From the NCBI GenBank assembly GCA_963666515.2, contig OY762897.2, forward strand, positions 3,968,001-4,032,000: DNA of 64,000 nucleotides, given 5' to 3'. Both the position numbers and the translations under genes were made by a program. Below, in pieces: positions 28,202 through 41,197 of this stretch. Each line of letters begins with the position of its first letter. Position 1 is the stretch's first letter. The DNA is from Candidatus Binatia bacterium. GTDB taxonomy: Bacteria > Desulfobacterota > Binatia > UBA9968 > JAJDTQ01. Under the pieces are notes generated by a model. The model did no database searches, was not told where the DNA came from, and saw only the letters and a list, made by a program, of their open reading frames with translations.

Positions 28202-28355
28202 CTCGGCCTCGGATCCACGACGTGGCGGACCGCGAGCGCATCCGGTCGCGGCTTTCAATGATTCCGAGGCCACGTGGCCTCGGAATCCCGGACCCCCGAG
28301 AAGAAGGCCCCGGAGCCCTTGAAGTGGTCCGGCAGATGGAGGAATGGAGGATGTC

Positions 28356-28511: not shown

Positions 28512-28548
28512 ACTCGTGGGGGCGGATCGCCGCTTCAATGAGGCCGAG

Positions 28549-28686
28549 TGTCAATGGCAACCGAAAACTGCACATTTTGGCAATCGAAAACTGCACACTT
28601 CCGAGAAGGGTGCCGGTGTGGGTCTGACGCCCTTCGGTTGGATTGGGTCGGGCGAGAGGGGTTGGACGGAGGGAGCGTAGCGAACG
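28549..28686. mobile_element. IS21-family-like terminal remnant inserted in a CRISPR repeat
   Basis: Starts TGTCAATGGC, followed by tandem GGCAA(C/T)CGAAAACTGCACA repeats (28556-28574, 28579-28597), the multi-repeat end structure typical of IS21. Confidence 0.7.
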
Positions 28687-29304
28687 GAGGCCGGGGCCAC
28701 GTGGCCTCGGAATCGGCAGATGCTGTTGAATACGCTTCTTCAGCCTGCCGCGCTTCAATGAGGCCGAGGCCACGTGGCCTCGGAATCCCTCGGAGTGGAG
28801 GGAGGGGAGATAGAGCCCGGAGTCGATCGCTTCAATGAGGCCGAGGCCACGTGGCCTCGGAATCCCGTGGTGGGAACGGCGTTGTCCACGGTCTTTGCCG
28901 GCATGCTTCAATGAGGCCGAGGCCACGTGGCCTCGGAATCGAAAAGAGGGAGGCTTTGCTAGAAAGTGGGCTTCTAACGCTTCAATGAGGCCGAGGCCAC
29001 GTGGCCTCGGAATCCGCTCGTCCTATCCCGTCTGCGCGGTCCGCGTTGCCGCTTCAATGAGGCCGAGGCCACGTGGCCTCGGAATCCGTGGTGAGCGCCG
29101 CCATCAATGTGCGGTCCCCGCGGGCTTCAATGAGGCCGAGGCCACGTGGCCTCGGAATCCCCGGAGGGAAACGACCCTCCGCATCGACAACACGCTGCTT
29201 CAATGAGGCCGAGGCCACGTGGCCTCGGAATCGAAACAACGAGGAGCCAGGATGAGCTACAGCCACGAGCTTCAATGAGGCCGAGGCCACGTGGCCTCGG
29301 AATC

Positions 29305-29520: not shown

Positions 29521-29814
29521 CTATACGATGGTAGCACGGCGGTCCGGCGACTCGTAGCTCTTGCCCAGGCTCTCGACGCGCGGGTCGACGGCGTCGGCGG
29601 GACCCAGGTCCACGATGAGGATATGGTCCTCCGAGGGCCGTATCAGGCTTTCCAGACGCGCGGCCATCTCGGCGCGCCGCCGGGCCGTGAGGCGACACTG
29701 AAAGACCGAAAGCTGGAGCCAGTGGCCATAGCCCTTCATGGTTTTGAATATCTGCTGCCAGCGCTTCGGCTCGGCGATGTCGTAAGTCACGATGTAGAGA
29801 CGCTCGTTGGCCAT
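29521..29814 (-). CDS. cas2: CRISPR-associated endoribonuclease Cas2
   Basis: YIVTYDI..PKRW...YGHWLQLSVFQC motif. Confidence 0.95.
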   Translation of the reverse strand: MANERLYIVTYDIAEPKRWQQIFKTMKGYGHWLQLSVFQCRLTARRRAEMAARLESLIRPSEDHILIVDLGPADAVDPRVESLGKSYESPDRRATIV

Positions 29815-29820
29815 GGTGGT

Positions 29821-31533
29821 TCACCGGGGAAGATAGTGCGGATACGCCTGGATTTCTCCCTGGAAGTGCCGGGCGAGCAGCCGCGCCTGCACGTCGATCA
29901 ACCGGCGCATGGAGACTCGGTAGCCGAACACCGGATGCGTGGTCTCCTGTTCCATGCGGCGCTCGAACGCGGCCATGAACGCCTTTCGGCCGCCGGGCTT
30001 GAGCGCACAGCTTGGCCCGTTGAAAACGAAATCACCCGGCTTGACTTCGCCATTGTTGACGACCTGGATCACGCATGAGTCGGCGACAATGGGACGGAAC
30101 GGCTCCATGAGGTCGAGGGCCAGGGCCGGACGGCCGTGGCGCGGTCGGTGGTACAATCCCATGTAGGGGTCGAGCCCGGTCGCCGAGATTGCGGTGGCGA
30201 GTGCCTGTGTCAGAAGTGCATAGGCGAGCGACAACATGGCGTTGACGGGGTCCGTGGGCGGACGCCGGTTGCGCGTCGAGAAGGAGAAGGTTGCTACGCC
30301 TTCGTCGGCATTCGGCGCGAGCATGTTGTCGAAGCGGGCGAAGTAGATGGCCGCGGATTCGCCCTCGATACCCAATAGCTGTTGCGCATTTTCCGCATAG
30401 GCCGCGCGTTTGGCCATCCGCCTGAGCCGTTCCAGCGCCTCAGCCTTGTCGCCGGTTTCCCGGTCGGCGCGCCAGTTGCGGCGCAGCAGAGTCCGCGAGT
30501 TGCGTATCTTGGCCGCAACCAGATCACGCGAGAAGGCCAGACTGCGACTTTCATCGAAGGCGAACCGGTACTGGGCCTCACGCACGGCCACGTTGCCGTT
30601 GCCGGTCCCCACCGTGTGGCCGAGGAACCATCCCCCGGTAGAGAACCATGAGACCGGAACCTCCGCGCGCATCAGGGCATGAAGCGCCGGCGTGGTGACG
30701 GAAACGGGGCCGAACAATGCGACCTGGGACACGTCGATCATCGGCACCTCCACCTTCTCTTCCTCCACCTCGACGATCAACTGCTCGCCGCTCTTGCGCA
30801 GCCTTGCGCCCGGCGTCTGTACGTAGAGCGGCAGCGCCGGATTGTCCGAAGGGTTGAGCTGGCGCGGCGGATAACCCTTCCGGAACAGGTTGGTCTCGTC
30901 CGGCAGACAGATGCCGGCGAGGGAACAGCGCGGACACTTGGGGCTGTTCTGCAAGGGCGGCGGACGGCGGCCCGAAGCCGCGGCGGCGCGCAGGCCCGAT
31001 ATGGCTTCCAAGGTCTGCGCCCGCAGTTCGGCGTCCAGCACCACCGGCACGCGTTCCCGTGAGCCGGCGTACCACAGCGCGCCCCGCTCCACGCGGTAGC
31101 CGTTGTCCTCCAGGATCATGGCTTGGGCGCAGACTTGTACCCGCTCGGGCTCATATGCTCCAGCGGCCACGTGCGGCCGCTTGCCCTTCTTGAAGTCGAT
31201 GGGTGTCGCGGATTCGTCGTCCGCCTCCACCACGTCCATCTTGGCGATGATGCCCAGGCGTTCCGAGGACATGGTGACCGCCCTGGCCCGGGCCAAGTCT
31301 TCGTCGAGGTCTTCCGGCGCGGGCAAACGCCCACCGCCCTCGTCTACCCGTGCGTGAGCGCGCCTTCCCTCTGCGGTATCTTCGCTGTCGGCCCATTCCC
31401 CCTCGACCCATTCCAGGTACGCGAGGCGCGGGCAATAGACCCATTCGTTGATCATGCGCACCGGGACGAGGGGAGTGTCGCCGGTTGCGGGAGGGGGCGG
31501 CAGGGCCAGGGTGAGTTGTTGGTCAGGAGTCAT
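29821..31533 (-). CDS. cas1: Cas4/Cas1 fusion (type I-G)
   Basis: N-terminal Cas4 (YCPR, DFKKG, CPRCSLAGICLP Fe-S cysteines) plus Cas1 (LLGIEG, RNRRPPTDPVNAMLSLAY, ALDLMEPFRP). Confidence 0.95.
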   Translation of the reverse strand: MTPDQQLTLALPPPPATGDTPLVPVRMINEWVYCPRLAYLEWVEGEWADSEDTAEGRRAHARVDEGGGRLPAPEDLDEDLARARAVTMSSERLGIIAKMDVVEADDESATPIDFKKGKRPHVAAGAYEPERVQVCAQAMILEDNGYRVERGALWYAGSRERVPVVLDAELRAQTLEAISGLRAAAASGRRPPPLQNSPKCPRCSLAGICLPDETNLFRKGYPPRQLNPSDNPALPLYVQTPGARLRKSGEQLIVEVEEEKVEVPMIDVSQVALFGPVSVTTPALHALMRAEVPVSWFSTGGWFLGHTVGTGNGNVAVREAQYRFAFDESRSLAFSRDLVAAKIRNSRTLLRRNWRADRETGDKAEALERLRRMAKRAAYAENAQQLLGIEGESAAIYFARFDNMLAPNADEGVATFSFSTRNRRPPTDPVNAMLSLAYALLTQALATAISATGLDPYMGLYHRPRHGRPALALDLMEPFRPIVADSCVIQVVNNGEVKPGDFVFNGPSCALKPGGRKAFMAAFERRMEQETTHPVFGYRVSMRRLIDVQARLLARHFQGEIQAYPHYLPR

Positions 31534-31597: not shown

Positions 31598-32041
31598 TCA
31601 CCGCCCCGCGCCTGAGTATACCGACCAGGGATTCAAGACCGGAACCTCGGTTCTCCGGAAGTCCTTCTCGTTACGGGTACAGAGTGTCAGGGAGTGCACT
31701 CGCGCCGTAGCAGCGATGAAAAGGTCCGGCTGGCTGAAAGTGATGCGCCTTTCTCTGCCCCACGCGACCATACGTCGCCATTCCAGGATCACTTCCTCGT
31801 CCACCGGAAGGATGCGCCCCGCGAACCAGGGTCTCAGCCTCTGGGCGAGCCAAGTTTCGAGCTCCTGACGAAGGATGGGGTCGGTTTGGCGCTCGATTCC
31901 GAAGCGGATCTCGGCCAGGGTCACGCTGCTCAGAAAGAAGCTGTCCGATGGCTGTCCATCAGACCATGCCTTCACTCGGTCGTTGGGTCGGGTCTTGCGC
32001 AACTCGGAGACGACGTTGGTGTCGAGCAGCCAAGCGTTCAC
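31598..32041 (-). CDS. vapC: VapC PIN-domain toxin
   Basis: LLDTNVVSE, SVTLAEI..G, DLFIAATA and TRNEKDF motifs. Confidence 0.92.
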   Translation of the reverse strand: MNAWLLDTNVVSELRKTRPNDRVKAWSDGQPSDSFFLSSVTLAEIRFGIERQTDPILRQELETWLAQRLRPWFAGRILPVDEEVILEWRRMVAWGRERRITFSQPDLFIAATARVHSLTLCTRNEKDFRRTEVPVLNPWSVYSGAGR

Positions 32042-32349
32042 AGATCGACCTCTCGAACGGGGCTCCTTACGCCTTCACCGTCAAGGTCCAAGCGGTTCAA
32101 GGGGGACTTGGACAACAAATCGTGCAGACTCACCGATTCAGCACACGTGCGAAGGCGTTCAAACTCGGACGTTGCGACGATGACGACCGTATCCTTGCCG
32201 CGTACCGTCACATGCTGCGGTTGACCGGAGGCCGCGAGGCGGACGACATCGCTGAACCTTGCCTTGGCCTCCCCCAGCTTCCAACCGTGAAGCGCCGTCG
32301 ACCGACTCTGCGCACTTTGACGAGACTTACCCATATGCCCTCTTCTCAT
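32038..32349 (-). CDS. Phd/YefM family antitoxin
   Basis: WKLGEAKARFSDVVR...PQHVTVRGK...VIV; overlaps the vapC start by 4 nt. Start may be 32334. Confidence 0.88.
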   Translation of the reverse strand: MRRGHMGKSRQSAQSRSTALHGWKLGEAKARFSDVVRLAASGQPQHVTVRGKDTVVIVATSEFERLRTCAESVSLHDLLSKSPLNRLDLDGEGVRSPVREVDL

Positions 32350-32364
32350 GACGCCCTCTTCTCA

Positions 32365-32408
32365 TGACCAAATTGGTCAAGAATATACGGAACGGAAAAC
32401 CCTTTCAA
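32365..32408 (-). promoter_or_regulatory. TA operon promoter and operator
   Basis: Minus-strand TTGAAA-17-TATTCT, followed by the palindrome TGACCAA-A-TTGGTCA (32365-32379). Confidence 0.6.
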
Positions 32409-32494
32409 GGCCGTGCGCGATCCAATGCTTGTCAGGTCAAGAACAGATTTTATTGAACTGAGCGGTAATCCCATGTGTGCATGGCCTGGCTGGG

Positions 32495-33466
32495 TCACCG
32501 ATTGAGTTCTGCCTCGGCCCTTGTGAAGTTCATGTATCTTCCCGTCGAGATTCGCCGTGCTCTGCGAACCTCGACAACGCCGAGGGAGTCGTGTGAGTCG
32601 CGGTCGTTCAAGCGCGGGTGACTCAGTAGTGCGCGGATTCCAGCCAAGCTCACAGGCTCGCGCCATATCGGCCAAGCGAAGGCAAAACCGCCCCTTGTCT
32701 CACGGTAGCCACCGAGAACGGCTAGCCTCACATCGCCGTACCGTCGCATTGGAGCGACAGTCAAAGCGGCAATGCCAACAGCGGCGAGTCTGTTGGCGCC
32801 ATGCTGCGTCGTCTCCTTGGCATCACTCGGATTCCTTGCGCGCAACGCATGGCGAACATCCTCGTTGGGATCCCAGCGAAAGGACTCTGTGTCGTCAGGC
32901 CGTTCCCAAGGGGCGAACAGAGCCTCGCTCAAGCAGTCCGTCTCGGAAATCGCGGTTTTGCGCCGGCCGGTGCCCCGGTCCGGTGGTGTTTTCATACGCG
33001 GAACCGATGTGAGCCGCGAGAGAAAATGCTGGCCTCCCTGACCAGAGACGAGACACAATGGTGTCCTCTCAACCCTCTTTCCGTCGCGGGTCATTGCCTT
33101 GTCACTGACAAGGGCTGACCATAGATCGGCGGCGTGCTGATTCCGATTCTCGCCATCAACGGCTTTACGCAGGCTTCGGGCGGAGTCCTTAGGGGAGAGT
33201 GTCAGGTCCTGGAGCCCACCGAATTCGTGGACTCGTGCCAAGACGTTGAGCCCCTTGGCCGCGGCCGCCACCACAGCGGCTTGATCGATCCCCTTTGGTA
33301 CCCGTAGGGCGGGGCGAAGGATCGGATCGTTAACCGTCCAGAAGGTGCGTGGATACCAACTTGGTTGTGCATCTTCGAGAACTCGCAACAGCCCCAGCAA
33401 CGCGATGAACGCGAGTAGGTTGTCGGGTTCCAATCCGTCGAGGCGGTGGATAGTATACTCGTTCAT
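32495..33466 (-). CDS. csb3: Type I-G large subunit, short Cas8u/Csb3-type (323 aa)
   Basis: LDGLEPDNLLAFIALLGLLR N-terminus, GQGGQHFL, FRWDP, ANRLAAVG, FAWPIW; ATGA overlap with cas3. Confidence 0.75.
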   Translation of the reverse strand: MNEYTIHRLDGLEPDNLLAFIALLGLLRVLEDAQPSWYPRTFWTVNDPILRPALRVPKGIDQAAVVAAAAKGLNVLARVHEFGGLQDLTLSPKDSARSLRKAVDGENRNQHAADLWSALVSDKAMTRDGKRVERTPLCLVSGQGGQHFLSRLTSVPRMKTPPDRGTGRRKTAISETDCLSEALFAPWERPDDTESFRWDPNEDVRHALRARNPSDAKETTQHGANRLAAVGIAALTVAPMRRYGDVRLAVLGGYRETRGGFAFAWPIWREPVSLAGIRALLSHPRLNDRDSHDSLGVVEVRRARRISTGRYMNFTRAEAELNR

Positions 33467-36390
33467 GACTTGTGGGTCTCGTCCGATGTGTTTTCCATTT
33501 CCGACGCCCGGTGATCGGCAAGGCGCAAGATCGCTTCCATGTAGGCCAAGCCCCATATGCCGTACCGGCGCTTCAGATTCTCGAAGATGGACGGCCAATC
33601 CGCCCCGTTGAAGTCGAACGCTAACGATTGCGGCCCGGCTTGGTTCGGCAAGATTTGCCAGTCCTCAACTTCAAGGCAGGGCACTGGCCGCTCAGGCATT
33701 GGATCAACGAAGTTGAAGAACGGCCGGCCCTGTCCGTGGTGGCTTCCGATAAGCCAGAGGACGAGCGCGGGGTCATGTGCTTCGGCGAGGCGAGGGTGCA
33801 CCCTCGCCATCCGAACCGACAATGCCTCGTGGCGCCAGCCCTCTGGCAGGCCTGCGTTCGCCCAAGCGCTTGGCGACCACGACCGTCCGCCCTTTGCCAG
33901 TGGCGGACCGTCGGGTCGGTTCCAGTGATCGCCGCCTGACAGCATGGTCTGAAATCGTGGATCGGCCTTGCCTGCGTCGTGCAGGTAAGCTGCGAGGCGG
34001 AGATCGTCCGCCAAGTCTTCAAGGCCAAGGGTCCGTGCGAAGTGTTCGGCCAAGTCAGCGACATGACAGCCATGGTCGTTTAGACGTACCGGACTGCTGG
34101 AGGTATGGGATGCTACGTCATCCTCGGTCGCGGGAACGGCGATGTTTGAGTCCGGGGCGTCCTTGATCCCTCGCTCCGCGACAAGGACCGCGCCCCCTTG
34201 ACGGCCGTAGGGACAATGAACATCAATTTGCCCCTTGGCTCTTTGAAGCGCCTCCAACGGTTCCCGCACATCGCGAAGTATGGAGCTGCCGTTCGTGTTC
34301 TCTTCCGACGCTTCGGCAGGCAGGCCCTCAATCAGTTGCTCTACGAGTTCGGTGCCGTCGACGCCCTCGGCAGCGAGTATGGCCAACACCCGTTCCCATT
34401 GAGCGTCGGAGCGCGCGGTGTCACGCGCGATTCGAACCGTGCACCGCCGCCCCCGGTAGGGTTTTGCCGCCTCGTCGGCGACATCCCTGACCGGATTTTC
34501 TGAGTGCGGTTTCCAACCGAACGTGTCGCAACCACCGTATTTTGAGGGAACGATCAGCACGTCGCCTGTTCGCAAATCGGCTAAGTCTATGACACCGGTG
34601 CGCGGATCATCGGTTCCGGCCCAAAGGAAGGCCTGTCTACCACGTCCCTGCGTAGGGGACGCTTCGTGTGCTTCAGCGTCTGGTTCCGGCGCGTCCGAAA
34701 TTTCGGCGACCCTGTCTTTTGCTCCTCTCAGCCATGCCCGTGCGCTCCAAAGCGGAACCTCGATCGCCTCGGCAGTGCGAGGTGGGACTAATCGGATCAA
34801 TTCTTTGAGCTTGTTCCCGCCTCCATCTTCGAAATCTGTTTCAGAGATATCGCTGCGCCAGACGATGGAGACGCCTGCAGCCATTCGCTCGGATCCGTGC
34901 AGAAACAGCGCAACTTCCGGGTCCACGGCTGGCCGCGGCGACGTTTGGGACCACAAGTCGAGATAGGCAGGCATGACCACCGGCGCGTCCGACCGTTCAG
35001 CGGCCAAGCTATCCACGTCGATGCCTGCCTCCTTGAGGCGATTAGGCAAAGCCTCGACGCCGAAGTCCACTACGCCGTCTTGGGCGATTTCGTGGAGTGC
35101 CTCCCATGTCAAGCGGATTCGGTCGCCATAGACCGGATCATGGGCCTTCTTGGCGACGTCTCCGGCGCGGGTCAGGATCGCACCTTCGGCGGCGTCCAAT
35201 CGCCCGGCGCGGTTCAACCGACCGAAGCGCTGGCGGAGCGCGTCAAGCGACGCGGCTTGGGTCACGAGGCCGTCGAGGTCGAGATCGACACCCACTTCCA
35301 GGCACTGCGTCGCGATGACGAATAGTGGCTCGGCCTCCGCTCGGGCCTCTGCGCCGGTTCGGAATCGGGTGAGCTTTTCTACAATCGTGCCCCTTTCCAC
35401 GCTACGTGAGCGCCCGATCATCAGGATCGCTTCGGCGGTGCCATCGCCCTTTAGTGCCTCGAAAACGCTGCGCGCGAGCGCCACACGGTTGACAACGACG
35501 CCGACTGCAGCGGGCGTGATCCCTTGTTTACACAGCCTGTCGGCCATCACGCGCGCCTCGTCTGCGAACGCCTTGGCCACGGCTTGGTCCCCGCCTCGAA
35601 TTGGCTGTCTCAGCGCAGTGCGTTTTCGCGCTTCAAGCCGCTTCTTCAGCTCGATGTGGGCTCGGTCCCCTGGTGTAAGCGAAAGTGGCCGTTCTGCCCT
35701 CGCTCCCGGCGTGGCGGTCAGCACCGTTACGCGGAATTTGCCGCCGCCGATCTTTTGTACGGCGTCAAGCGTCTGCCGGAACGGTTCGGAGAGATGCGCT
35801 TCGTCCAGGAGGACCAGACTGTGGACACCGAGTAGCCCGGCATGGACTGGCTTCATGCGGTCGGAGACGCCGTATCCGCGGAACAGTAGGCGGGAGCCGA
35901 CTTGATCGACTGTCGAGCAAAGGATCGTCGGCTGTGTCGGAGTGCGTGCCCAATCATGCTCTAGCGGTGCCCCGCCTCGAAGACGCCGCGCTACCAGTGG
36001 CCGCGTGTTCTTGCCCGCTAGCCCTTGCAGGCGTCGGGCGACTTCTCTGATAGTGCCGTCTCCTTTGAGGTCAGTCTCAAAGGCGCATTCAAGTTTTAAG
36101 GCGATCTTCTTGGCGCGGTTGTAAGCATCGTCAACAACGAGGCGTCGGTCCACCACGAACGCGATCCGCACCGCGGCCTTGGCCGGCGCATCAGAACGGA
36201 GCGCCAAATGGAATACGGCCGCGTCGAGTGCCGCGGTCTTTCCTGTGCCGGTCGGCAGGTCCAGCACATCCGGCCAAACATCGTCGTTGGCGAGTCTGTC
36301 GACTAGGGCCTGTTGCCAAGGGAACGGGTCGCAACCGTGGACCGCCCTGAAAAAACTGGCGAAATCGGTGGGACGAAGCTCCATGATCAA
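33463..36390 (-). CDS. cas3: Type I-G Cas3 (SF2 helicase with C-terminal HD nuclease)
   Basis: PFPWQ, PTGTGKT, DEAH, TQCLEVGVD and QRFGRLNR motifs; C-terminal LNDH, HDAGK, RHEALS, SHHG and LADH. Confidence 0.95.
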   Translation of the reverse strand: MIMELRPTDFASFFRAVHGCDPFPWQQALVDRLANDDVWPDVLDLPTGTGKTAALDAAVFHLALRSDAPAKAAVRIAFVVDRRLVVDDAYNRAKKIALKLECAFETDLKGDGTIREVARRLQGLAGKNTRPLVARRLRGGAPLEHDWARTPTQPTILCSTVDQVGSRLLFRGYGVSDRMKPVHAGLLGVHSLVLLDEAHLSEPFRQTLDAVQKIGGGKFRVTVLTATPGARAERPLSLTPGDRAHIELKKRLEARKRTALRQPIRGGDQAVAKAFADEARVMADRLCKQGITPAAVGVVVNRVALARSVFEALKGDGTAEAILMIGRSRSVERGTIVEKLTRFRTGAEARAEAEPLFVIATQCLEVGVDLDLDGLVTQAASLDALRQRFGRLNRAGRLDAAEGAILTRAGDVAKKAHDPVYGDRIRLTWEALHEIAQDGVVDFGVEALPNRLKEAGIDVDSLAAERSDAPVVMPAYLDLWSQTSPRPAVDPEVALFLHGSERMAAGVSIVWRSDISETDFEDGGGNKLKELIRLVPPRTAEAIEVPLWSARAWLRGAKDRVAEISDAPEPDAEAHEASPTQGRGRQAFLWAGTDDPRTGVIDLADLRTGDVLIVPSKYGGCDTFGWKPHSENPVRDVADEAAKPYRGRRCTVRIARDTARSDAQWERVLAILAAEGVDGTELVEQLIEGLPAEASEENTNGSSILRDVREPLEALQRAKGQIDVHCPYGRQGGAVLVAERGIKDAPDSNIAVPATEDDVASHTSSSPVRLNDHGCHVADLAEHFARTLGLEDLADDLRLAAYLHDAGKADPRFQTMLSGGDHWNRPDGPPLAKGGRSWSPSAWANAGLPEGWRHEALSVRMARVHPRLAEAHDPALVLWLIGSHHGQGRPFFNFVDPMPERPVPCLEVEDWQILPNQAGPQSLAFDFNGADWPSIFENLKRRYGIWGLAYMEAILRLADHRASEMENTSDETHKS

Positions 36391-37910
36391 CGCTCCAACG
36401 TCCGGCAGAGACCGAGCCCTGTGAACCGGCCCGCTCCGAGAAGGACAGGACCAACCAACTCCCGCTCAAAGTCGATGACAGCATGGATCAATTGCCGGCT
36501 CCCCAGCGATTTGGGCGCCTTCCAGCGGGTCCACGGCGGCTCGCCTGCCAACGGCCGCGCGGGCGGTGCCCCTTCAATAGCCGAATGCTTGCTGACTCGG
36601 ATCCGGTCGGGCTTTGGGCGTGGCAGCCCGGCGTTCTCACACGCACGGGCGACAAGCTCGCGAATCTCCGAGTCGTCCCCGCGCTTCAAGTGGCGTTCCA
36701 GCACGATGGGCGTCACGCTGGCCCAAAGGCGCGACTTTTTCAGGTAGGGATAGGGGGAAAGCGACCATTTTCGCGTTTCGGCCCCAGATGCGGGTGCGAG
36801 GTCCACAGGCCCATGCAGAGGCGATCCTTGCAAGGTCAGAATACGCCGTTGCCTGTCAGGATGATAAGGCGCCACTTTCTCGAACGCCGCTCGGAAACCA
36901 TCGAGGCCGCGGAGTGTCTCACCCTGCGGCGGTATCAGGGCGAAACCGAAGACGCGGCCGTCGGCATAGGGTGAGCCGACGAAGGCCATAGGGACAATGG
37001 CCAGATGGGGTTGTCGTGTCGGCGCATCGTCAGGCCTGTGCCCAGACACGATCTCGGGAATGTTTTCTCCCCGCCCCACCTTCCGATAACCGCCCATGAG
37101 GGCCTGTCGCAACAGGCGGCAAACCAGAGCTGCCGCCCGGATATCTGGAACATCGCCTTCGACCGCCTCCAGGACCAGCCATTCAGCCAGCGGCTCCGGC
37201 ACGGAAGGTTCCTCGACGAAAACCGGCGTCCCAGGTCGTATCGCGGGGCGCTCCGGGTTTTCGCGATGCGCCTCCTCCAGTTCGTGCAAACGGCCCGGAT
37301 AGACGCGCCGGCGTGCTCTTGTGGGAGGATGTTTCTGATTGCAGGTATCTCCCGGAACAAACCGGCACCTCGTCAGACTCGCCGAGTGGCCGATGTATCC
37401 CACGCACTCGGCGACGTTGTTCAAGTCGTTGAGTACACCGGCATCCGGTTCGGCTGGCCAGACCAACTTTAGGACCGGGTCGTCAGGCCGGGCAACTGGG
37501 AATTGGCGTTCCTTTCGTTGCCGAAATTCCGGGAATGTAGAAAGCGCCTGTCTCCAAATGCGCTGGTGACCCCCCTTTTCGGGAGGGCGCTTCCCAAGGG
37601 CAAGGAAGTCACGAAACCACCTCTGCTTATCGAGGTCGTTTTTCGGCGTTTGGAAGTCGTTCGGTGGCACGAACACGTCAGGCGTTGTCCTGGGCAAATG
37701 ACCGCTCGCGAAAATAGTCGGCGACGGCTGTGCTTCCAGCCATTCAAGGGCCGCCCGTTCCTGCGCCTGTTCGCCGCGGGTCCCCCAAGCGGAAACCAGC
37801 GCCGAAAACACCCGGTCCGGTTGCAGCGGCCAGTCGGGCGCGTCGTCGCCGGGCTCACGCGCGGCGCGGCAGACACCGGTGAGGAACTCGATCTCAAGAA
37901 TGAGGCTCAT
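36387..37910 (-). CDS. csb2: Type I-G Cas5/Cas6 fusion Csb2
   Basis: DWPLQPDRVFSALV, YIGHSAS, WASVTP and the C-terminal G-rich GPVLLGAGRFTGLGLC loop. Confidence 0.92.
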   Translation of the reverse strand: MSLILEIEFLTGVCRAAREPGDDAPDWPLQPDRVFSALVSAWGTRGEQAQERAALEWLEAQPSPTIFASGHLPRTTPDVFVPPNDFQTPKNDLDKQRWFRDFLALGKRPPEKGGHQRIWRQALSTFPEFRQRKERQFPVARPDDPVLKLVWPAEPDAGVLNDLNNVAECVGYIGHSASLTRCRFVPGDTCNQKHPPTRARRRVYPGRLHELEEAHRENPERPAIRPGTPVFVEEPSVPEPLAEWLVLEAVEGDVPDIRAAALVCRLLRQALMGGYRKVGRGENIPEIVSGHRPDDAPTRQPHLAIVPMAFVGSPYADGRVFGFALIPPQGETLRGLDGFRAAFEKVAPYHPDRQRRILTLQGSPLHGPVDLAPASGAETRKWSLSPYPYLKKSRLWASVTPIVLERHLKRGDDSEIRELVARACENAGLPRPKPDRIRVSKHSAIEGAPPARPLAGEPPWTRWKAPKSLGSRQLIHAVIDFERELVGPVLLGAGRFTGLGLCRTLER

Positions 37911-39175
37911 TCTTGGCCCTCGTCCTCGCCCCCCTCGCCTTTCAGTGCCAGTTCACGGCTGCGGCGGACGATCTCGACCAGCTTATCCTGCGGCTTCAAC
38001 GTGAGCGAGCGGAACCGAAAGCCCGCGCTTTCGGCATTTCCATACGCTTCCCGATATAGAGCCAGCGCCGACTGGCGGTCAGATTCGACAGCCTCCGTGG
38101 AGCCGTCTGAATGAACGAGCTCGAGTGGTGCGGTGTCGCTACCGACAAGGTCGCAGCGTGAGCGTAACGCGTAGCCGCGCACGTCCTGCTCGGCCAGCGC
38201 CAAGAGCCCCAGAGATGCCACTAGTGCACGTCCTGCGGTGTCCCTTTCGCCGCCGCCGAAGCGCAACCGCCGGAGTCCAGCCAAGGTAATCGTCGCTCGA
38301 TGTTCGGCGTAATCGCACGTAACGCCAAGAGGCTCAACCGTGGGCGCTATGTTGCCGTGGTTGATCTCGGAGGGGCGGACTTTCTTCGCCCCCTTACCGG
38401 CTGCGGTCTGGTCCGTGTTCCAGTCGCCGACCGAAGCGCCCTTGAAGATTTCCACCTTTCGCAGGACTCCCAATGAGTCCATGCGGCTTCCGGTGCGGCG
38501 CCCAGAGGTTCGTACATGTGTTTCGCCGGGGCGTAGGTCCCCTGTCGTCACCTCTACAGGGGTGTCGATGGCCATGATCTCGGAGACAAGCACGCGCGGA
38601 AACTTTGCGCCGAGACCGCCGCCTTCGCCTTGGCTATGCCAAGCGCCAAACAGAAGTGCCGTGGGGCAAAGCTCTAGCAGCGCTGTAGCGTCGGACGGTT
38701 TCGCCGCGGCAAGGCGGTGACCTTCGTCGCTTTGCATGAAGGAAACACCGTCCAACAGACTGTCCCGCAGGACGGCGTCGTAGACCCGGTGTGGCGCGTC
38801 CAACGACGTGACACGCTCCAACGGCTCCAGCCCTGCTTGGCGAAAATCGACAGTGACGTACGGCAACGGTACTTTCCTACCGTTGTCGTGTTCGTCGGCG
38901 GCTGCCAGGAGCGCCTCTTCCAGTCGGTTGGCTTGGCTTTGGACGCTGTCAACTAAAACGCACCAGATTTCCCTGCCATCAATGCGCCGAAGCTCGAACA
39001 CATGGCGCGGCGGCGTACCCCGCGGGGCATTCCGTTCAGGCGGATAGGTTGGCGGGAATATCTTGTCGCCCTTGCCGCCCACCGGCTGAAGCCGTCGGAT
39101 GCGGCGAAACGCGGCGTCCTCGCCAACGGAGGTGTTCAGTGCTTGAAGATCAATCATTGTTTTTCGTGCCTCCAT
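37907..39175 (-). CDS. csb1: Type I-G Cas7 backbone Csb1
   Basis: KIFPPTY, VDSVQSQANRLEEAL, PHRVYDA, PTALLFGAW, HGNIAP and LRSRCDL motifs. Start is 39175 or 39157. Confidence 0.93.
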   Translation of the reverse strand: MEARKTMIDLQALNTSVGEDAAFRRIRRLQPVGGKGDKIFPPTYPPERNAPRGTPPRHVFELRRIDGREIWCVLVDSVQSQANRLEEALLAAADEHDNGRKVPLPYVTVDFRQAGLEPLERVTSLDAPHRVYDAVLRDSLLDGVSFMQSDEGHRLAAAKPSDATALLELCPTALLFGAWHSQGEGGGLGAKFPRVLVSEIMAIDTPVEVTTGDLRPGETHVRTSGRRTGSRMDSLGVLRKVEIFKGASVGDWNTDQTAAGKGAKKVRPSEINHGNIAPTVEPLGVTCDYAEHRATITLAGLRRLRFGGGERDTAGRALVASLGLLALAEQDVRGYALRSRCDLVGSDTAPLELVHSDGSTEAVESDRQSALALYREAYGNAESAGFRFRSLTLKPQDKLVEIVRRSRELALKGEGGEDEGQE

Positions 39176-39198
39176 GTTCTTGACTTAGGATGAGAGAG

Positions 39199-39255
39199 AA
39201 GATAATCCTACAGAGGACTAATGTCAATCCCTAAAAACCCTACAAAAACAATAAA
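39199..39255 (-). promoter_or_regulatory. Sigma-70 promoter of the cas operon with adjacent crRNA target site
   Basis: Minus strand TTGACA (39227-39222)-17 nt-TATCTT (39204-39199); the upstream T-rich tract 39236-39252 matches the mini-array spacer. Confidence 0.75.
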
Positions 39256-39271
39256 CTTTTCTTGCTCTATA

Positions 39272-39379
39272 TTCGGGCTAACCGGGAGGAGTGGGCTGCA
39301 TTGCAGGATTGTATTTGTGGGGTTAAAGGTGTGCCCTGTGCGCATGCTTCCGGGTCGTAAGGCCCGGCTTCATTGGTGT
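39272..39379 (+). ncRNA. Degenerate single-spacer mini-CRISPR (crRNA-like regulatory RNA, CreA/CreR-like)
   Basis: Pseudo-repeat 1 ends ATTGCAGG (39300-39307; canonical ATTGAAGC); 38-nt spacer at 39308-39345; pseudo-repeat 2 GCTTCCGGGTCGTAAGGCCCGGCTTCATTGGTGT (39346-39379) keeps the repeat hairpin and the TCATTG tail. Confidence 0.72.
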
Positions 39380-39409
39380 TGTCACGCCTTGGCCGACGGC
39401 GATTGGGTT

Positions 39410-39697
39410 TTACTTGCTCGGTGTCGTGCGTTTCTTTGCAAATATTTCGCCTGCAACTCGATCCACTTCTACCTTGGTCTGTCGCAGTAACTCGATTTCG
39501 TCTGGCGTCAACATTCGGGGAGCAGGTGATTTGCCGAGCCTCCGGTTGAGCAGGTCGATCGACGGCGTGGCCGAAACCCCTGTCTCCTCGTTGCTTGAAG
39601 ATTGGTCCTTATCGTTACCCGAACTCACGCGTCCCCTCCCGTAGTGCCCCCACTCACCCCTCCGCCACCTCCACCGACGCCAAGTTTCGCGCCTCAC
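39410..39697 (-). CDS. Small hypothetical protein (start uncertain)
   Basis: The C-terminal RMLTPDEIELLRQTKVEV looks protein-like; the 5' part overlaps the ATPase gene. Confidence 0.35.
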   Translation of the reverse strand: MRRETWRRWRWRRGEWGHYGRGRVSSGNDKDQSSSNEETGVSATPSIDLLNRRLGKSPAPRMLTPDEIELLRQTKVEVDRVAGEIFAKKRTTPSK

Positions 39698-41197
39698 TGC
39701 TGAACTCGACGGTGACCAAGTGGATGGGCTGGTTCAAGTGCTGGTACTTGTCGGCGTATCCTCTCTCTTTCAGTTGGGCCATTGCAGCGCCCTTGGGCGC
39801 CAGCTCCATCACCTTGAACTCGAAGAGGTAGACGTTGCCGTTGAAGCGCACGGCCATGTCGAGGCGGCCGTGGCTGCTGCTGTCCTCCACCGTCACGTCG
39901 AGTCCGAGAGCGGCGAACCAGGAATAGAACACGCTGGCGTAGTAGCCTTCGTAGTTGGCGATGTCGTTGTTGGTATGCCACTCGTACGGGATGCTGGCGA
40001 AGAACGAGCGGAACAGCGCTTCCAGTCCGGCGAAGTCGTTGGCCGAGAGCAGTTCGTACAGACGGATGTCGTGCCGCCCCTGCCGGGAGGCGTCCGGCCC
40101 CATGGCGCGCAACAGGTGCTCGTTCAGGCTCTGCTTGACCTCCCTGTTCGGATAGCCCAGGCGGTAGAGGGTCTTGCCGCCCAGGTTCTTCTCTTCCAGG
40201 ATCGTCAGGTAGCCGGTCTGGAACAGCAGCGCCTCGGTCGCCATGTCGTCCACGTCGAACTTCGACAGCAGATCGTCGGTGCCGACCATGTCTTCGAGGG
40301 CCGGCGCGCCCAGCCGCCGCTCGAACAGCGTCTTGATGAGAAACGACGGAGACCCGGTTTCAAACCAGTGGGCCTTGTACTCGCGGCTGTCCAGCAACAG
40401 CAGGATGTCGAACGGGTTGTAGACCTTCTCGTAGCCGCGCCAACTGTAGCCGTTGTACCAGTCGCGGATCTCGTCGCGCTGGAGTCCGGGAAGCTCCGGT
40501 GCGAACACGGTGTCGAGGTCGGCGTCCGTGTAGCCGCATATGGCGGAATAGCGCGGGTCCATGGTGAGGTCGGCGAGGTTGTTGAGACCGGAGAACAGGC
40601 TCACCTTCGAGAACTTGCTGACGCCGGTGACGAACGTGAACCGCACGTGCGCGTCGTGGTCCTTGATGGCCGCGTAGAGGCCGCGCAGGAAGTCGCGGTT
40701 CGCCTCGGCCACTTTCGGCGCGTCCAGGGCGTCAGGATGGGCTTGTCGTATTCGTCCACCAGCACCACCACCGGCTGCCCGGCCTGGACGTGCAACGCTT
40801 CCAGCAGAGCGCCGAGCCGCCCCGCCGCGGTGCCGTATTCGAGGACCACGCCGGCGCGCCGCTCGATTCCGGCAAGCTGTTCCATGAGGCTCGCTTCGAC
40901 CTGCCCCGGTTCCTTGTAGCTGCCGCCGCCGAAGCTGAGGCGCAGGATCGGGAAACGCGTGGACCAGTCCCAGCGGTCATGGATGTAAAGCCCCTTGAAC
41001 AGCGGCTCGTTGGCCTCGAAAAGCTCCTTCAGCGTATCGAGGAACAGGCTCTTGCCGAATCGTCTGGGCCGGGAGAGAAAGTAATGTTTCCCGGCCGTGG
41101 CCAGCCTTTCGACGTACGCGGTCTTGTCCACGTAGTAGCAGTCCCGCTCCCGAAGCTCGCGGAACGTCTGCATGCCGATGGGAAGCCGGCGTTTCAT
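39654..41197 (-). pseudogene. AAA-ATPase-like + PD-(D/E)XK nuclease (family 9) protein, split by a 1-nt frameshift near 40733
   Basis: LPIGMQTF, YYVDKT, RPRRFGKS and DEYDKP in ORF 40601-41197 continue into FVTGVSKF, WYNGY, YNPF, EGYY and GRLDM..FEFK in ORF 39654-40712. Confidence 0.85.

What the first reader, a model, noticed from the sequence alone, without database searches (positions are those of the whole stretch)
39199..39379. Hidden mini-CRISPR whose spacer targets the type I-G cas promoter: candidate crRNA-guided autorepression
Seen: on the + strand, divergent from csb1 and 10 kb from the main array, sit an 8-nt handle ATTGCAGG (39300-39307; the array repeat ends ATTGAAGC), a 38-nt spacer (39308-39345, within the array's 36-41 nt range), and a degenerate repeat GCTTCCGGGTC-GTAA-GGCCCGGCTTCATTGGTGT. 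That repeat aligns to GATTCCGAGGCCACGTGGCCTCGGCCTCATTGAAGC and keeps a hairpin. Spacer nt 1-17 (ATTGTATTTGTGGGGTT) match minus-strand 39252-39236 (ATTGTTTTTGTAGGGTT) with mismatches only at positions 6 and 12, and pairing stops at 18. The target is preceded by TTT and lies 8 bp upstream of the -35 box (TTGACA-17-TATCTT) of the cas operon. Established: every 6th crRNA base is flipped out in Cascade and tolerates mismatch; type I-G uses TTN PAMs; PAM-proximal partial pairing allows binding without Cas3 cleavage; CreA/CreR-type RNAs use this to repress promoters in other type I systems. Inference: Csb2-processed RNA guides I-G Cascade to repress its own operon, possibly acting as a sensor of Cascade, crRNA or anti-CRISPR levels. 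I do not know whether an I-G example has been characterised.
Basis: partly seen in the sequence, partly recalled or inferred. Interest (0 to 1): 0.92.

Follow-up and report, generated by a model that had tools for sequence, protein, structure and literature searches.

The report
CreR-type guide RNA repressing I-G cas
A decayed one-spacer CRISPR next to a type I-G cas operon appears to make a guide RNA that steers the system's own surveillance complex onto its own promoter, a self-repression circuit already known in other CRISPR subtypes.

Summary
A handle (39300-39307), a 38-nt pseudo-spacer (39308-39345) and a hairpin-bearing pseudo-repeat (39346-39379) lie divergent from csb1 of an intact type I-G locus. 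Spacer nt 1-17 match a TTT-flanked site (39252-39236, minus strand) 8 bp upstream of the only sigma-70-like promoter in the intergenic region. The only mismatches are at positions 6 and 12.

It is not chance. The seed has one such site in the 4.67-Mb genome, and 0 of 600 shuffled seeds have any. The pseudo-repeat is the best non-array hit of a repeat covariance model in the 64-kb window.

The same layout, with other spacer/target pairs and TTN PAMs, occurs upstream of csb1 in 9 of 40 loci scanned, forming 6 lineages. A homologous scaffold at a second I-G locus (L061) differs from the window at 5 seed positions, all matched by changes in its own target. The uncompensated differences fall only at positions 6, 12 and 18.

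The reading (crRNA-like RNA guiding Cascade to repress Pcas) is well supported comparatively but has no expression data. It is a CreR-type element. A 2023 preprint lists I-U (the older name for I-G, per the structure preprint) among subtypes with such elements but did not test it. Verdict: new member of a known kind.

The parts
39300..39307 (+). Pseudo-repeat 1, reduced to the 8-nt 5' handle ATTGCAGG (array handle ATTGAAGC). The 4 bases before it (CTGC) are also conserved with L002.
   Evidence: Identical in L002. ATTGCAGT in the homologous scaffold of L061.
39308..39345 (+). Pseudo-spacer, 38 nt. Seed nt 1-17 (39308-39324) pairs with the target. The 3' half does not.
   Evidence: The seed is conserved with L002 except at position 12; the 3' half has diverged.
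39346..39379 (+). Pseudo-repeat 2. A 7-bp hairpin (39350-39367, GNRA loop GTAA) is followed by CTTC and then ATTGGTGT. The predicted Csb2 cut is after 39371, giving a predicted RNA of about 72 nt (39300-39371).
   Evidence: Covariance-model hit, 15.0 bits, best non-array hit in the window. The hairpin appears in the fold. The geometry equals that reported for Csb2. It is conserved in L002 and L061 with loops GCAA and GAAA.
39236..39252 (-). Target (protospacer-like) site. It is identical to seed nt 1-17 except at positions 6 and 12.
   Evidence: Identical in L002.
39253..39255 (-). PAM TTT (TTN is the I-G PAM).
   Evidence: PAM rule from passages of 10.1101/2022.08.08.503147. TTG, TTA, TTC, TTT and TTA in the other lineages.
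39199..39227 (-). Pcas: -35 TTGACA (39227-39222), a 17-nt spacer, -10 TATCTT (39204-39199). It drives csb1-csb2-cas3g and the genes downstream.
   Evidence: 10 of 12 consensus matches, the only hit in 39100-39500. Both hexamers are conserved in L002 while the spacer between them has diverged.
39268..39273 (+). Possible -10 box (TATATT) of the creR promoter. This is inferred and weak. Its -35 region would overlap the target.
   Evidence: By eye. L002 has TATAAC at the same distance (25-26 nt) from the handle (sequence). It was NOT found by the consensus scan.
37907..39175 (-). csb1/cas7g, the first gene of the repressed operon. The true start may be the second ATG at 39157.
   Evidence: NCBIfam TIGR02570, E = 4.3e-23. 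L002 has GTG at the first ATG and shares the second.
28752..29304 (-). Main CRISPR array: 8 perfect 36-nt repeats. Decayed repeats continue at 28686-28714, 28532-28568 and 28251-28287. It is the source of crRNAs that would compete with CreR.

Best explanation
39300-39379 is a creR-type gene: a degenerate one-spacer CRISPR whose RNA turns the locus's own type I-G Cascade into a repressor of the cas operon.

Proposed steps:
(1) The + strand is transcribed from the 45-nt linker between target and handle (inferred; the promoter is not established).
(2) Csb2 binds the pseudo-repeat-2 hairpin and cuts 4 nt after its base, at about 39371. It stays on the 3' hairpin while Csb1 subunits coat the 38-nt pseudo-spacer. 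This is inferred from I-G biochemistry and the identical geometry. How the 5' end at 39300 arises is open, because pseudo-repeat 1 has no hairpin.
(3) The complex reads the TTT PAM and pairs seed nt 1-17 with the site at 39252-39236, with bases 6 and 12 flipped out. The sequence complementarity is shown; binding is inferred.
(4) Pairing ends at position 18, so the R-loop stays partial and Cas3g is not licensed to cut (inferred from other type I systems).
(5) The bound complex would span 38 bp from the PAM and so cover the -35 box at 39227-39222, blocking RNA polymerase at Pcas. It probably also blocks the divergent creR promoter (inferred).

The result is negative feedback. Cas output rises when Cascade is scarce, titrated by array crRNAs, or inactivated by anti-CRISPRs. 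That behaviour has been shown for I-B, I-E and V-A CreR, not here.
For: Anatomy and uniqueness:
- a single TTN-flanked 15/15 site in 4.67 Mb, and 0 of 600 shuffled seeds with one.

Repeat-likeness independent of the match:
- best non-array covariance-model hit in 64 kb, at exactly 39346-39379.
- Stem length, the 4-nt offset and the 8-nt handle equal those measured for Csb2.

Phylogenetic footprint against L002 (Csb1 86% identical):
- The handle, seed, pseudo-repeat 2, target, -35 and -10 are conserved.
- The linker, the spacer 3' half and the -35/-10 spacer have diverged.

Recurrence:
- 9 of 40 csb1 loci in 6 lineages show handle + seed -> TTN-flanked site upstream of csb1.
- In a handle-free scan of 39 loci, every non-trivial hit at >= 14/15 was preceded by ATTG.
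- The non-cognate control gave 2 of 454, both homologues.

Co-variation:
- WIN against L061 shows 5 compensated positions; the uncompensated ones are only 6, 12 and 18.
- Taking one locus per lineage (WIN, L007, L006, L010, L050, L061), positions 6 and 12 are mismatched in 11 of 12 cases. The other 15 seed positions are mismatched in 6 of 90. The latter rate is capped by the scan's own threshold.

Orientation and context:
- All 6 targets are on the csb1 sense strand, next to or overlapping promoter-like sites in WIN, L002, L006, L050 and L061.
- The mechanism has been demonstrated for CreR in I-B, I-E and V-A (abstract and section 8 of 10.1101/2023.03.10.532045).
Against: - No consensus promoter was found on the + strand, and the -35 of the candidate promoter is poor.
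- Pseudo-repeat 1 has no hairpin in the canonical place, so 5' maturation is unexplained.
- The RNA fold of the region is no more stable than shuffles (z = -0.23 and +0.46).
- Sequence similarity of pseudo-repeat 2 to the repeat is weak. It is not in the top 90 BLAST hits genome-wide and is missed by Rfam. The covariance-model E-value is only 0.15 per window. L002's copy is not listed at E <= 5.
- 31 of 40 loci scanned show no such element. L018 keeps the creR but lacks the target region. On the Csb1 tree the element is patchy, needing at least 5 gains or losses. It is therefore dispensable.
- Within the closest pair (WIN and L002) there is no compensatory change.
- Some related loci were MAG or metagenome contigs; L003 and L007 are near-identical and come from bins of two phyla.
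Confidence: 0.82

Rival explanations
1. It is the antitoxin half (CreA) of a CreTA-type addiction module. The guide represses a small, unrecognised toxin RNA or peptide near the target, and cas repression is secondary.
For: CreA and CreR have the same anatomy, and CreA can repress cas promoters too (section headings and section 8 of 10.1101/2023.03.10.532045). A small conserved ORF of unknown family (39410-39697, minus strand) travels with the element in WIN and L002.
Against: The targeted promoter's -10 box ends 24 nt before the csb1 ATG at 39175, leaving no room for a creT. The seed has no second TTN-flanked site in the genome.
Confidence: 0.05
2. It is a decaying remnant of an old array or an old self-targeting spacer, with no present function.
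For: The repeats are heavily degenerate. There is no expression evidence. The element is absent from most related loci.
Against: Selective conservation of exactly the handle, seed, hairpin, target and PAM against a diverged background. Recurrence in 6 lineages with cognate targets, and compensated changes. Every lineage shows a 5'-anchored partial match with a TTN PAM and the same strand orientation, which decay would not produce.
Confidence: 0.04
3. The two 17-nt arms are an inverted repeat bound by a protein regulator, or form an RNA or DNA hairpin. The resemblance to CRISPR is incidental.
For: In the window the seed and target form an inverted repeat 55 nt apart. Other I-G loci seem to use protein operators or divergent HTH genes at the same place (L012, L015, L017; L005, L009, by eye).
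Against: In lineage b (L003, L007) the seed and target are direct repeats, not inverted. All seeds are preceded by an ATTG handle. In lineages a, b, e and f the seed is followed at 38 nt by a repeat-type hairpin; in c and d only the 5' arm of one follows. Mismatches follow a period of 6, not dyad symmetry. The region lies outside the cas mRNA if transcription starts after 39199.
Confidence: 0.03

Closest known systems
CreR (Cas-regulating RNA) mini-CRISPRs of type I-B, I-E and V-A. Source: Liu et al. preprint 10.1101/2023.03.10.532045; I read the abstract, section 8 and passages.
   Same: - A degenerate two-repeat mini-CRISPR in the cas locus.
- Pseudo-repeat 1 keeps mainly the 8-nt handle, and pseudo-repeat 2 keeps the 3'-handle part.
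- The PAM-proximal part of the pseudo-spacer matches a PAM-flanked site next to the effector-gene promoter (15 consecutive nt in the Salmonella I-E case; 17 with two flipped positions here).
- No linked toxin.
   Different: - The subtype is I-G, whose Csb2 is a Cas5-Cas6 fusion that holds the 3' hairpin and not the handle.
- The gene is divergent from the operon, and its target sits between the two promoters.
- Nothing has been tested experimentally. The preprint only says creA-like elements were found by hand for I-U in its Figure S7, which I could not see (figures are not held; only the legend was read).
CreTA (CRISPR-repressed toxin-antitoxin) of haloarchaeal I-B. Source: Cheng et al. 2022, PMC9458426, passages only.
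   Same: A crRNA-like RNA with degenerate repeats guides Cascade to repress a promoter through partial pairing. Repeat degeneration is typical.
   Different: No creT toxin lies downstream of the targeted promoter here. The promoter drives csb1 directly.
Regulatory mini-arrays (cr-like RNAs) of I-E, I-F1, I-D and I-B. Source: Shmakov et al. preprint 10.1101/2023.03.03.530964, passages only.
   Same: Mini-array spacers are partially complementary to promoters of effector genes, with a canonical PAM. Every sixth position is noted as non-pairing.
   Different: Those target cas8, cas10d or cas6 promoters. 'I-G', 'I-U' and 'Csb1' occur 0 times in that main text; its supplementary tables were not available to me.
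tracr-L autorepression of cas9 in type II-A, as described in the introduction of 10.1101/2023.03.03.530964.
   Same: The logic is the same: a natural guide with short (11-bp) complementarity to its own effector promoter represses without cleavage.
   Different: It is class 2, a different RNA scaffold and a single-protein effector.

Membership tests
CreR-type cas-regulating mini-CRISPR | Degenerate repeat-like elements flanking one spacer-like sequence, located in or beside the cas locus | tested here: met
   The handle matches the array handle at 6 of 8 positions. Pseudo-repeat 2 is the best non-array covariance-model hit in the window. The pseudo-spacer is 38 nt, within the array's 36-41 range. 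Pseudo-repeat 1 beyond the handle is almost gone.
CreR-type cas-regulating mini-CRISPR | The PAM-proximal part of the pseudo-spacer is complementary to a site at the promoter of effector cas genes, with no pairing distally | tested here: met
   Positions 1-17 match except at 6 and 12, and pairing ends at 18. The site is 8 bp upstream of the -35 box of the csb1 promoter.
CreR-type cas-regulating mini-CRISPR | The target is flanked by the subtype's PAM | tested here: met
   TTT here, and TTN in all 6 lineages. TTN is the PAM stated for I-G in 10.1101/2022.08.08.503147.
CreR-type cas-regulating mini-CRISPR | Evolutionary conservation with spacer/target co-variation | tested here: met
   Footprint against L002. 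6 lineages. 5 compensated changes against L061.
CreR-type cas-regulating mini-CRISPR | The RNA is expressed, processed by the Cas6-type nuclease and loaded into the effector | not testable with these tools
   No RNA data could be laid on the region. Only the geometry fits Csb2.
CreR-type cas-regulating mini-CRISPR | Cascade- and guide-dependent repression of the cas promoter | not testable with these tools
   Needs reporter or binding assays.
CreTA addiction module | A toxin gene (creT) under the promoter targeted by the guide | tested here: not met
   The -10 box ends 24 nt before the csb1 ATG at 39175. The genome has no other TTN-flanked seed match. A tiny RNA toxin cannot be excluded formally.
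Canonical CRISPR array | Two or more near-identical repeats able to accept new spacers next to a leader | tested here: not met
   The pseudo-repeats score 15 bits or less against 53.7 bits for the real repeats. They are not detected by Rfam CRISPR-DR16.
Type I-G CRISPR-Cas (host system) | Csb1/Cas7g, Csb2 (Cas5-Cas6 fusion), Cas3g and the Cas4g/Cas1g fusion | tested here: met
   NCBIfam TIGR02570, TIGR02165, TIGR02621, NF049934 and NF049935, all above their cut-offs. Cas2 by Pfam.

The most novel reading that the evidence does not exclude
Type I-G CreR genes may mature and act differently from the I-B and I-E paradigm.

In I-G the 5' handle is not held by a Cas5 subunit, and Csb2 grips only the 3' hairpin. 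I-G CreRs appear to have shed the pseudo-repeat-1 hairpin altogether. They exist in two builds:
- a full 3' hairpin (lineages a, b, e, f);
- a 'split repeat', in which the surviving 3' arm of pseudo-repeat 1 pairs with the surviving 5' arm of pseudo-repeat 2 across the whole guide (lineages c, d, z = -4.0 and -3.3).

In the window's build, one Cascade site lies between two divergent promoters. It could shut both cas and creR, giving a doubly negative loop.

G401 carries two I-G loci with homologous creR scaffolds but orthogonal seed/target pairs. This suggests the seeds have diverged to insulate two co-resident systems from each other.
Probability: 0.25. Interest if true: 0.6.

Novelty: new member of a known kind. 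Interest (0 to 1): 0.45.

Why it matters
Type I-G is the least studied type I subtype, and how its cas genes are controlled is, as far as my searches show, untested.

This locus and its relatives give a ready-made natural mutagenesis series: six seed/target pairs, with five compensated changes inside one scaffold. It says which guide positions I-G Cascade needs for binding (1-5, 7-11, 13-17) and which it ignores (6, 12, 18). It also says that 17-24 bp of PAM-proximal pairing is the range evolution uses for binding without cleavage.

That is directly useful for building I-G based repression (CRISPRi) tools and for predicting how anti-CRISPRs or crRNA load feed back on cas expression. It extends the CreR principle rather than adding a new one.

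Tried and rejected
- RNA evidence: the look-up of sequencing runs listed no RNA holder. The 5 rows were unlabelled or DNA-type contigs from 2 studies, so expression could not be examined.
- Read laying used contigs only. X1-X3 hold the stretch with 0 differences in 38800-39682, which may be the source sample and gives no information on transcripts. One short contig of X5 (organism B) overlaps pseudo-repeat 2.
- BLAST of the repeat against the genome and Rfam did not single out pseudo-repeat 2.
- The strict contiguous-pairing scan found only WIN and L002. Allowing mismatches outside 6n positions was needed.
- The metagenome scan gave only 12 short contigs. The phylum searches gave few csb1 genes: 5 of 401 genomes at E <= 1e-20 and 3 of 401 at E <= 1e-40, partly the same genomes.
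- Loci left out before counting: L011, L021, L022 and L023 (no csb1 5' end or upstream DNA); L028 and L029 (broken or partial matches); L058-L060 (duplicates of L002, L026, L027).
- Of the 40 scanned, L012, L013 and L014 had only 203, 210 and 67 nt upstream. L041-L048 belong to (or, for L043, too short for the tree, score like) the other Csb1 clade. I did not check whether csb1 is the first gene of their operon, so a miss there says little.
- The Csb1 tree has long, doubtful branches (L010, L014, L018, L050), probably from my crude translation of tblastn ranges. I use it only to say that the element is patchy.
- The reciprocal reading of the window's inverted repeat (seed on the other arm) was rejected because it has no ATTG handle and no following hairpin.
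- The small ORF 39410-39697 was considered as a partner gene. It has no Pfam or NCBIfam family and occurs only in L002 among the loci held.
- Literature searches for an I-G CreR: (listings); 'find' for I-G/I-U. The only mention is the I-U sentence and the Figure S7 legend of 10.1101/2023.03.10.532045. Supplementary files and figures were not available and may hold I-G examples. The journal version of that preprint is not held.
Full report
WHAT IS THERE

The window carries an intact type I-G CRISPR-Cas locus on the minus strand:
- csb1/cas7g at 37907-39175;
- csb2 at 36387-37910;
- cas3g at 33463-36390;
- a Cas3-extension family protein at 32495-33598;
- a Phd/VapC-like pair at 31598-32349;
- cas4g/cas1g at 29821-31533 (all);
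- cas2 at 29521-29814;
- an array of 8 perfect 36-nt repeats at 28752-29304, with decayed copies further on.

The 36-nt repeat ends with the 8-nt handle ATTGAAGC.

Upstream of csb1, the only sigma-70-like promoter in 39100-39500 is TTGACA-17-TATCTT on the minus strand (39227..39199).

THE OBSERVATION

- handle ATTGCAGG at 39300-39307;
- a 38-nt pseudo-spacer at 39308-39345;
- a pseudo-repeat at 39346-39379, with a 7-bp stem, loop GTAA, four bases (CTTC), then ATTGGTGT.

This is the geometry reported for I-G. Csb2 cuts 4 nt 3' of a 7-bp stem and leaves an 8-nt handle (passages of 10.1101/2022.08.08.503147).

Spacer nt 1-17 equal minus-strand 39252-39236 except at positions 6 and 12. Position 18 mismatches. 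The site is preceded by TTT and ends 8 bp before the -35 box.

IS IT MORE THAN CHANCE?

- The seed, read with positions 6 and 12 free and a TTN PAM required, has exactly one site in the 4.67-Mb genome. 0 of 600 shuffled seeds have any, and 3 of 600 do without the PAM requirement.
- Independently of that match, a covariance model built from four real I-G repeats (alignment A3) ranks 39346-39379 on the + strand as the best hit outside the array in the whole 64-kb window (15.0 bits, E = 0.15).
- Against this, plain BLAST does not lift the pseudo-repeat above the GC-rich background and Rfam CRISPR-DR16 misses it.
- The stretch before the handle keeps almost nothing of the repeat.

RELATED LOCI

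I collected csb1 homologues from several sources:
- reference genomes (11 loci);
- metagenomes (12 loci);
- taxon-wide genome searches.

I scanned up to 700-1000 nt upstream of csb1 in 40 loci. The search was for an ATTGNNNN handle whose next 18 nt match, at 12 or more of the 15 non-6n positions, a TT-preceded site in the same region. There were 22 loci, 17 and 1.

Nine loci were positive, in six lineages with unrelated seeds:

| Lineage | Loci | Orientation to csb1 | PAM | Mismatched positions | Pairing extent |
|---|---|---|---|---|---|
| a | WIN, L002 | divergent | TTT, TTG | 6, 12 (L002: 6 only) | 1-17 |
| b | L003, L007 | same strand | TTA | 6, 9, 12 | 1-18 (L003: to 17, 18 mismatched) |
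| c | L006 | divergent | TTC | 6, 9, 12, 15 | 1-23 |
| d | L010, L016 | divergent | TTT | 3, 12, 14 | 1-24 (L016: to 23, 24 mismatched) |
| e | L050 | divergent | TTA | 3, 6, 12 | 1-18 |
| f | L061 | divergent | TTA | 6, 12 | 1-18 |

Controls:
- Spacers of one locus against the upstream region of another gave 2 hits in 454 pairs. Both came from L018, which carries a lineage-d creR but has lost the target region.
- A scan without any handle requirement over 39 loci, at 14 or more of 15, returned only WIN, L002, L003, L007 and L050. In each, the seed is immediately preceded by ATTG. The remaining hits were two mirror readings and the true array of L017.

All six targets lie on the csb1 sense strand.
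- In WIN, L002, L006 and L050 a consensus promoter starts 2-17 bp after the 18-nt target window printed; in the window this is 8 bp after paired position 17.
- In L007 the -35 hexamer abuts the target by eye but fails the scan's -10 rule.
- In L061 three promoter-like sites flank or overlap the target.
- In L010 no consensus promoter was found on the csb1 strand.

CO-VARIATION

L061 is a second I-G locus in the genome that also holds L002. Its Csb1 is 46% identical to the window's.

Its creR is clearly homologous to the window's:
- handle ATTGCAGT;
- the same stem, with loop GAAA, against GTAA in the window and GCAA in L002; all three are GNRA loops;
- the same CTTC-ATTG junction.

Its seed differs from the window's at positions 1, 5, 7, 10 and 15. 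Its own target differs at the same five positions in the same way. The only differences that are not matched are at 6, 12 and 18.

Taking one locus per lineage (WIN, L007, L006, L010, L050, L061), positions 6 and 12 are mismatched in 11 of 12 cases, about what unconstrained positions would give. The other 15 seed positions are mismatched in 6 of 90. That second rate is bounded by my own scan threshold. The informative point is that the sixth positions are not conserved along with their neighbours, as simple duplication would predict.

This fits the 5+1 periodicity with a flipped sixth base seen in the I-G Cascade structure.

FOOTPRINT IN THE CLOSEST RELATIVE

In the alignment of the window with L002 (Csb1 86% identical):
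- Conserved: the small upstream ORF, pseudo-repeat 2, the handle plus seed, the target, the -35 box, the -10 box and the 5' UTR.
- Diverged, with indels: the 45-nt linker between target and handle, the 3' half of the pseudo-spacer, and the spacer between -35 and -10.

L002's genome has large arrays with a nearly identical repeat, so the system is in use there.

MECHANISM

I read the element as a CreR-type gene. Shown here:
- the anatomy;
- its uniqueness in the genome;
- its conservation and co-variation;
- the PAM;
- its position at the promoter.

Inferred from I-G biochemistry and from CreR work in I-B, I-E and V-A (abstract and section 8 of 10.1101/2023.03.10.532045):
- Csb2 binds and cuts the 3' hairpin.
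- Cascade loads the 38-nt guide and reads TTT.
- It forms a 17-bp partial R-loop that does not license Cas3.
- It covers the -35 box, which would lie at protospacer positions 26-31.
- Repression is relieved when Cascade is titrated by crRNAs or hit by anti-CRISPRs.

Open points:
- The creR promoter. Only a weak TATATT at 39268-39273 is a candidate, matched in position by TATAAC in L002, and it was not found by the scan.
- The origin of the 5' end, since pseudo-repeat 1 lacks a hairpin. The I-G paper's finding that Csb2 does not bind the handle, and that only Cas7.1 touches it, may explain why the hairpin of pseudo-repeat 1 could be lost while that of pseudo-repeat 2 is kept.
- If the creR -35 region overlaps the target, as its position suggests, the same bound complex would also repress creR.

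RIVALS

- CreTA-type module. Unlikely, because the targeted promoter leads straight into csb1 and the seed has no other site.
- Dead remnant. This does not fit the selective conservation and compensated changes.
- Protein operator or hairpin. This does not fit the direct-repeat arrangement in lineage b, the ATTG handles, the period-6 mismatch pattern, or the repeat-type hairpins that follow the seed in lineages a, b, e and f.

WHAT IS KNOWN

- CreR was described in 2023, with experiments in I-B, I-E and V-A. The same text says that creA-like elements were found by hand for I-D, I-C, I-E, I-F and I-U, mostly with targets adjoining the effector promoter (Figure S7, not viewable). Type I-G was previously known as I-U.
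- The parallel survey of mini-arrays treats I-E, I-F1, I-D and I-B. It does not mention I-G, I-U or Csb1 in its main text.
- Two later crlRNA preprints have no occurrence of I-G or I-U in their main text.
- I found no experimental study of an I-G CreR in four library searches.

VERDICT

It is a new, well-documented member of a known kind, not a new kind.

The element is also not universal. 31 of the 40 loci scanned lack it, and some relatives seem to use protein regulators instead (by eye).

Noticed in passing
L010:2575-2712 (-) and L006:812-958 (-): In lineages c and d, pseudo-repeat 1 keeps only the 3' arm of the repeat stem plus the handle. Pseudo-repeat 2 keeps only the 5' arm. The two arms pair across the whole guide in the minimum-energy fold (z = -4.0 and -3.3, 0 of 200 shuffles as stable). 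A separate long hairpin follows. This could be a 'split repeat' substrate for Csb2, or just a relic of the palindromic repeat.
   Followed up: partly
window 39410-39697 (-): A small ORF convergent with creR is conserved in L002 (75% identity over 71 residues, mostly conservative changes). Function unknown. Read-through transcription from it would be antisense to creR.
   Followed up: partly
window 31598-32349 (-): A Phd-family antitoxin gene and a VapC-like PIN toxin gene sit inside the cas operon, between the Cas3-extension gene and cas4g/cas1g. They would be co-regulated with Pcas. An unassigned 109-aa ORF lies at 32346-32675.
   Followed up: no
L061 (G401:C1:3659888-3664063) and L002: One genome carries two I-G loci, with Csb1 proteins 46% and 86% identical to the window's. 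Each has its own array of the same repeat family. Each has its own creR of the same scaffold but with an orthogonal seed and target.
   Followed up: yes
L018 (metagenome contig), about 100-300 nt upstream of csb1: It carries a lineage-d creR, but the stretch that holds the target in L010 and L016 is missing. This is a natural variant that may be derepressed.
   Followed up: partly
L012, L015, L017 (promoter region of csb1); L005, L009 (divergent upstream gene): Related I-G loci without a creR show a repeated GAACA-type motif over the promoter, or a divergent gene that looks like an HTH regulator (by eye, not tested). Different I-G lineages may use protein regulators at the same place.
   Followed up: no
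coded run X5, loose end at window 39337: A short contig from another organism and study overlaps pseudo-repeat 2. It continues into a spacer like the window's but differs at seed position 9 and in the 3' half. Its target could not be seen.
   Followed up: no
handles of all six lineages: In 5 of 6 lineages the last base of the creR handle is not the C of the array handle: G, G, G, A and T; only L050 keeps C. In addition, 5 of the 6 non-6n seed mismatches fall at positions 3, 9 or 15, the middle of a 5-nt segment. The numbers are small and the pattern is unexplained.
   Followed up: no
window 39157-39175 (-): The annotated-style first ATG of csb1 (39175) is GTG in L002. Both share the second ATG (39157), preceded by GGAGG. 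The true start may be 39157.
   Followed up: no
window 39654-40712 (-): An ORF with a PD-(D/E)XK_9 nuclease domain and a fragment of the 'predicted AAA-ATPase' family lies next to the locus. It is not conserved in L002.
   Followed up: no
window 14195-20423: Long tandem repeats with a period of 327-342 nt lie in a GC-rich coding region. It is probably a large repetitive surface protein. Not examined.
   Followed up: no
L003 and L007: Near-identical csb1 loci, including the creR, are assigned to MAGs of two different phyla from one assembly series. This suggests a binning error or very recent transfer. I counted them as one lineage.
   Followed up: no
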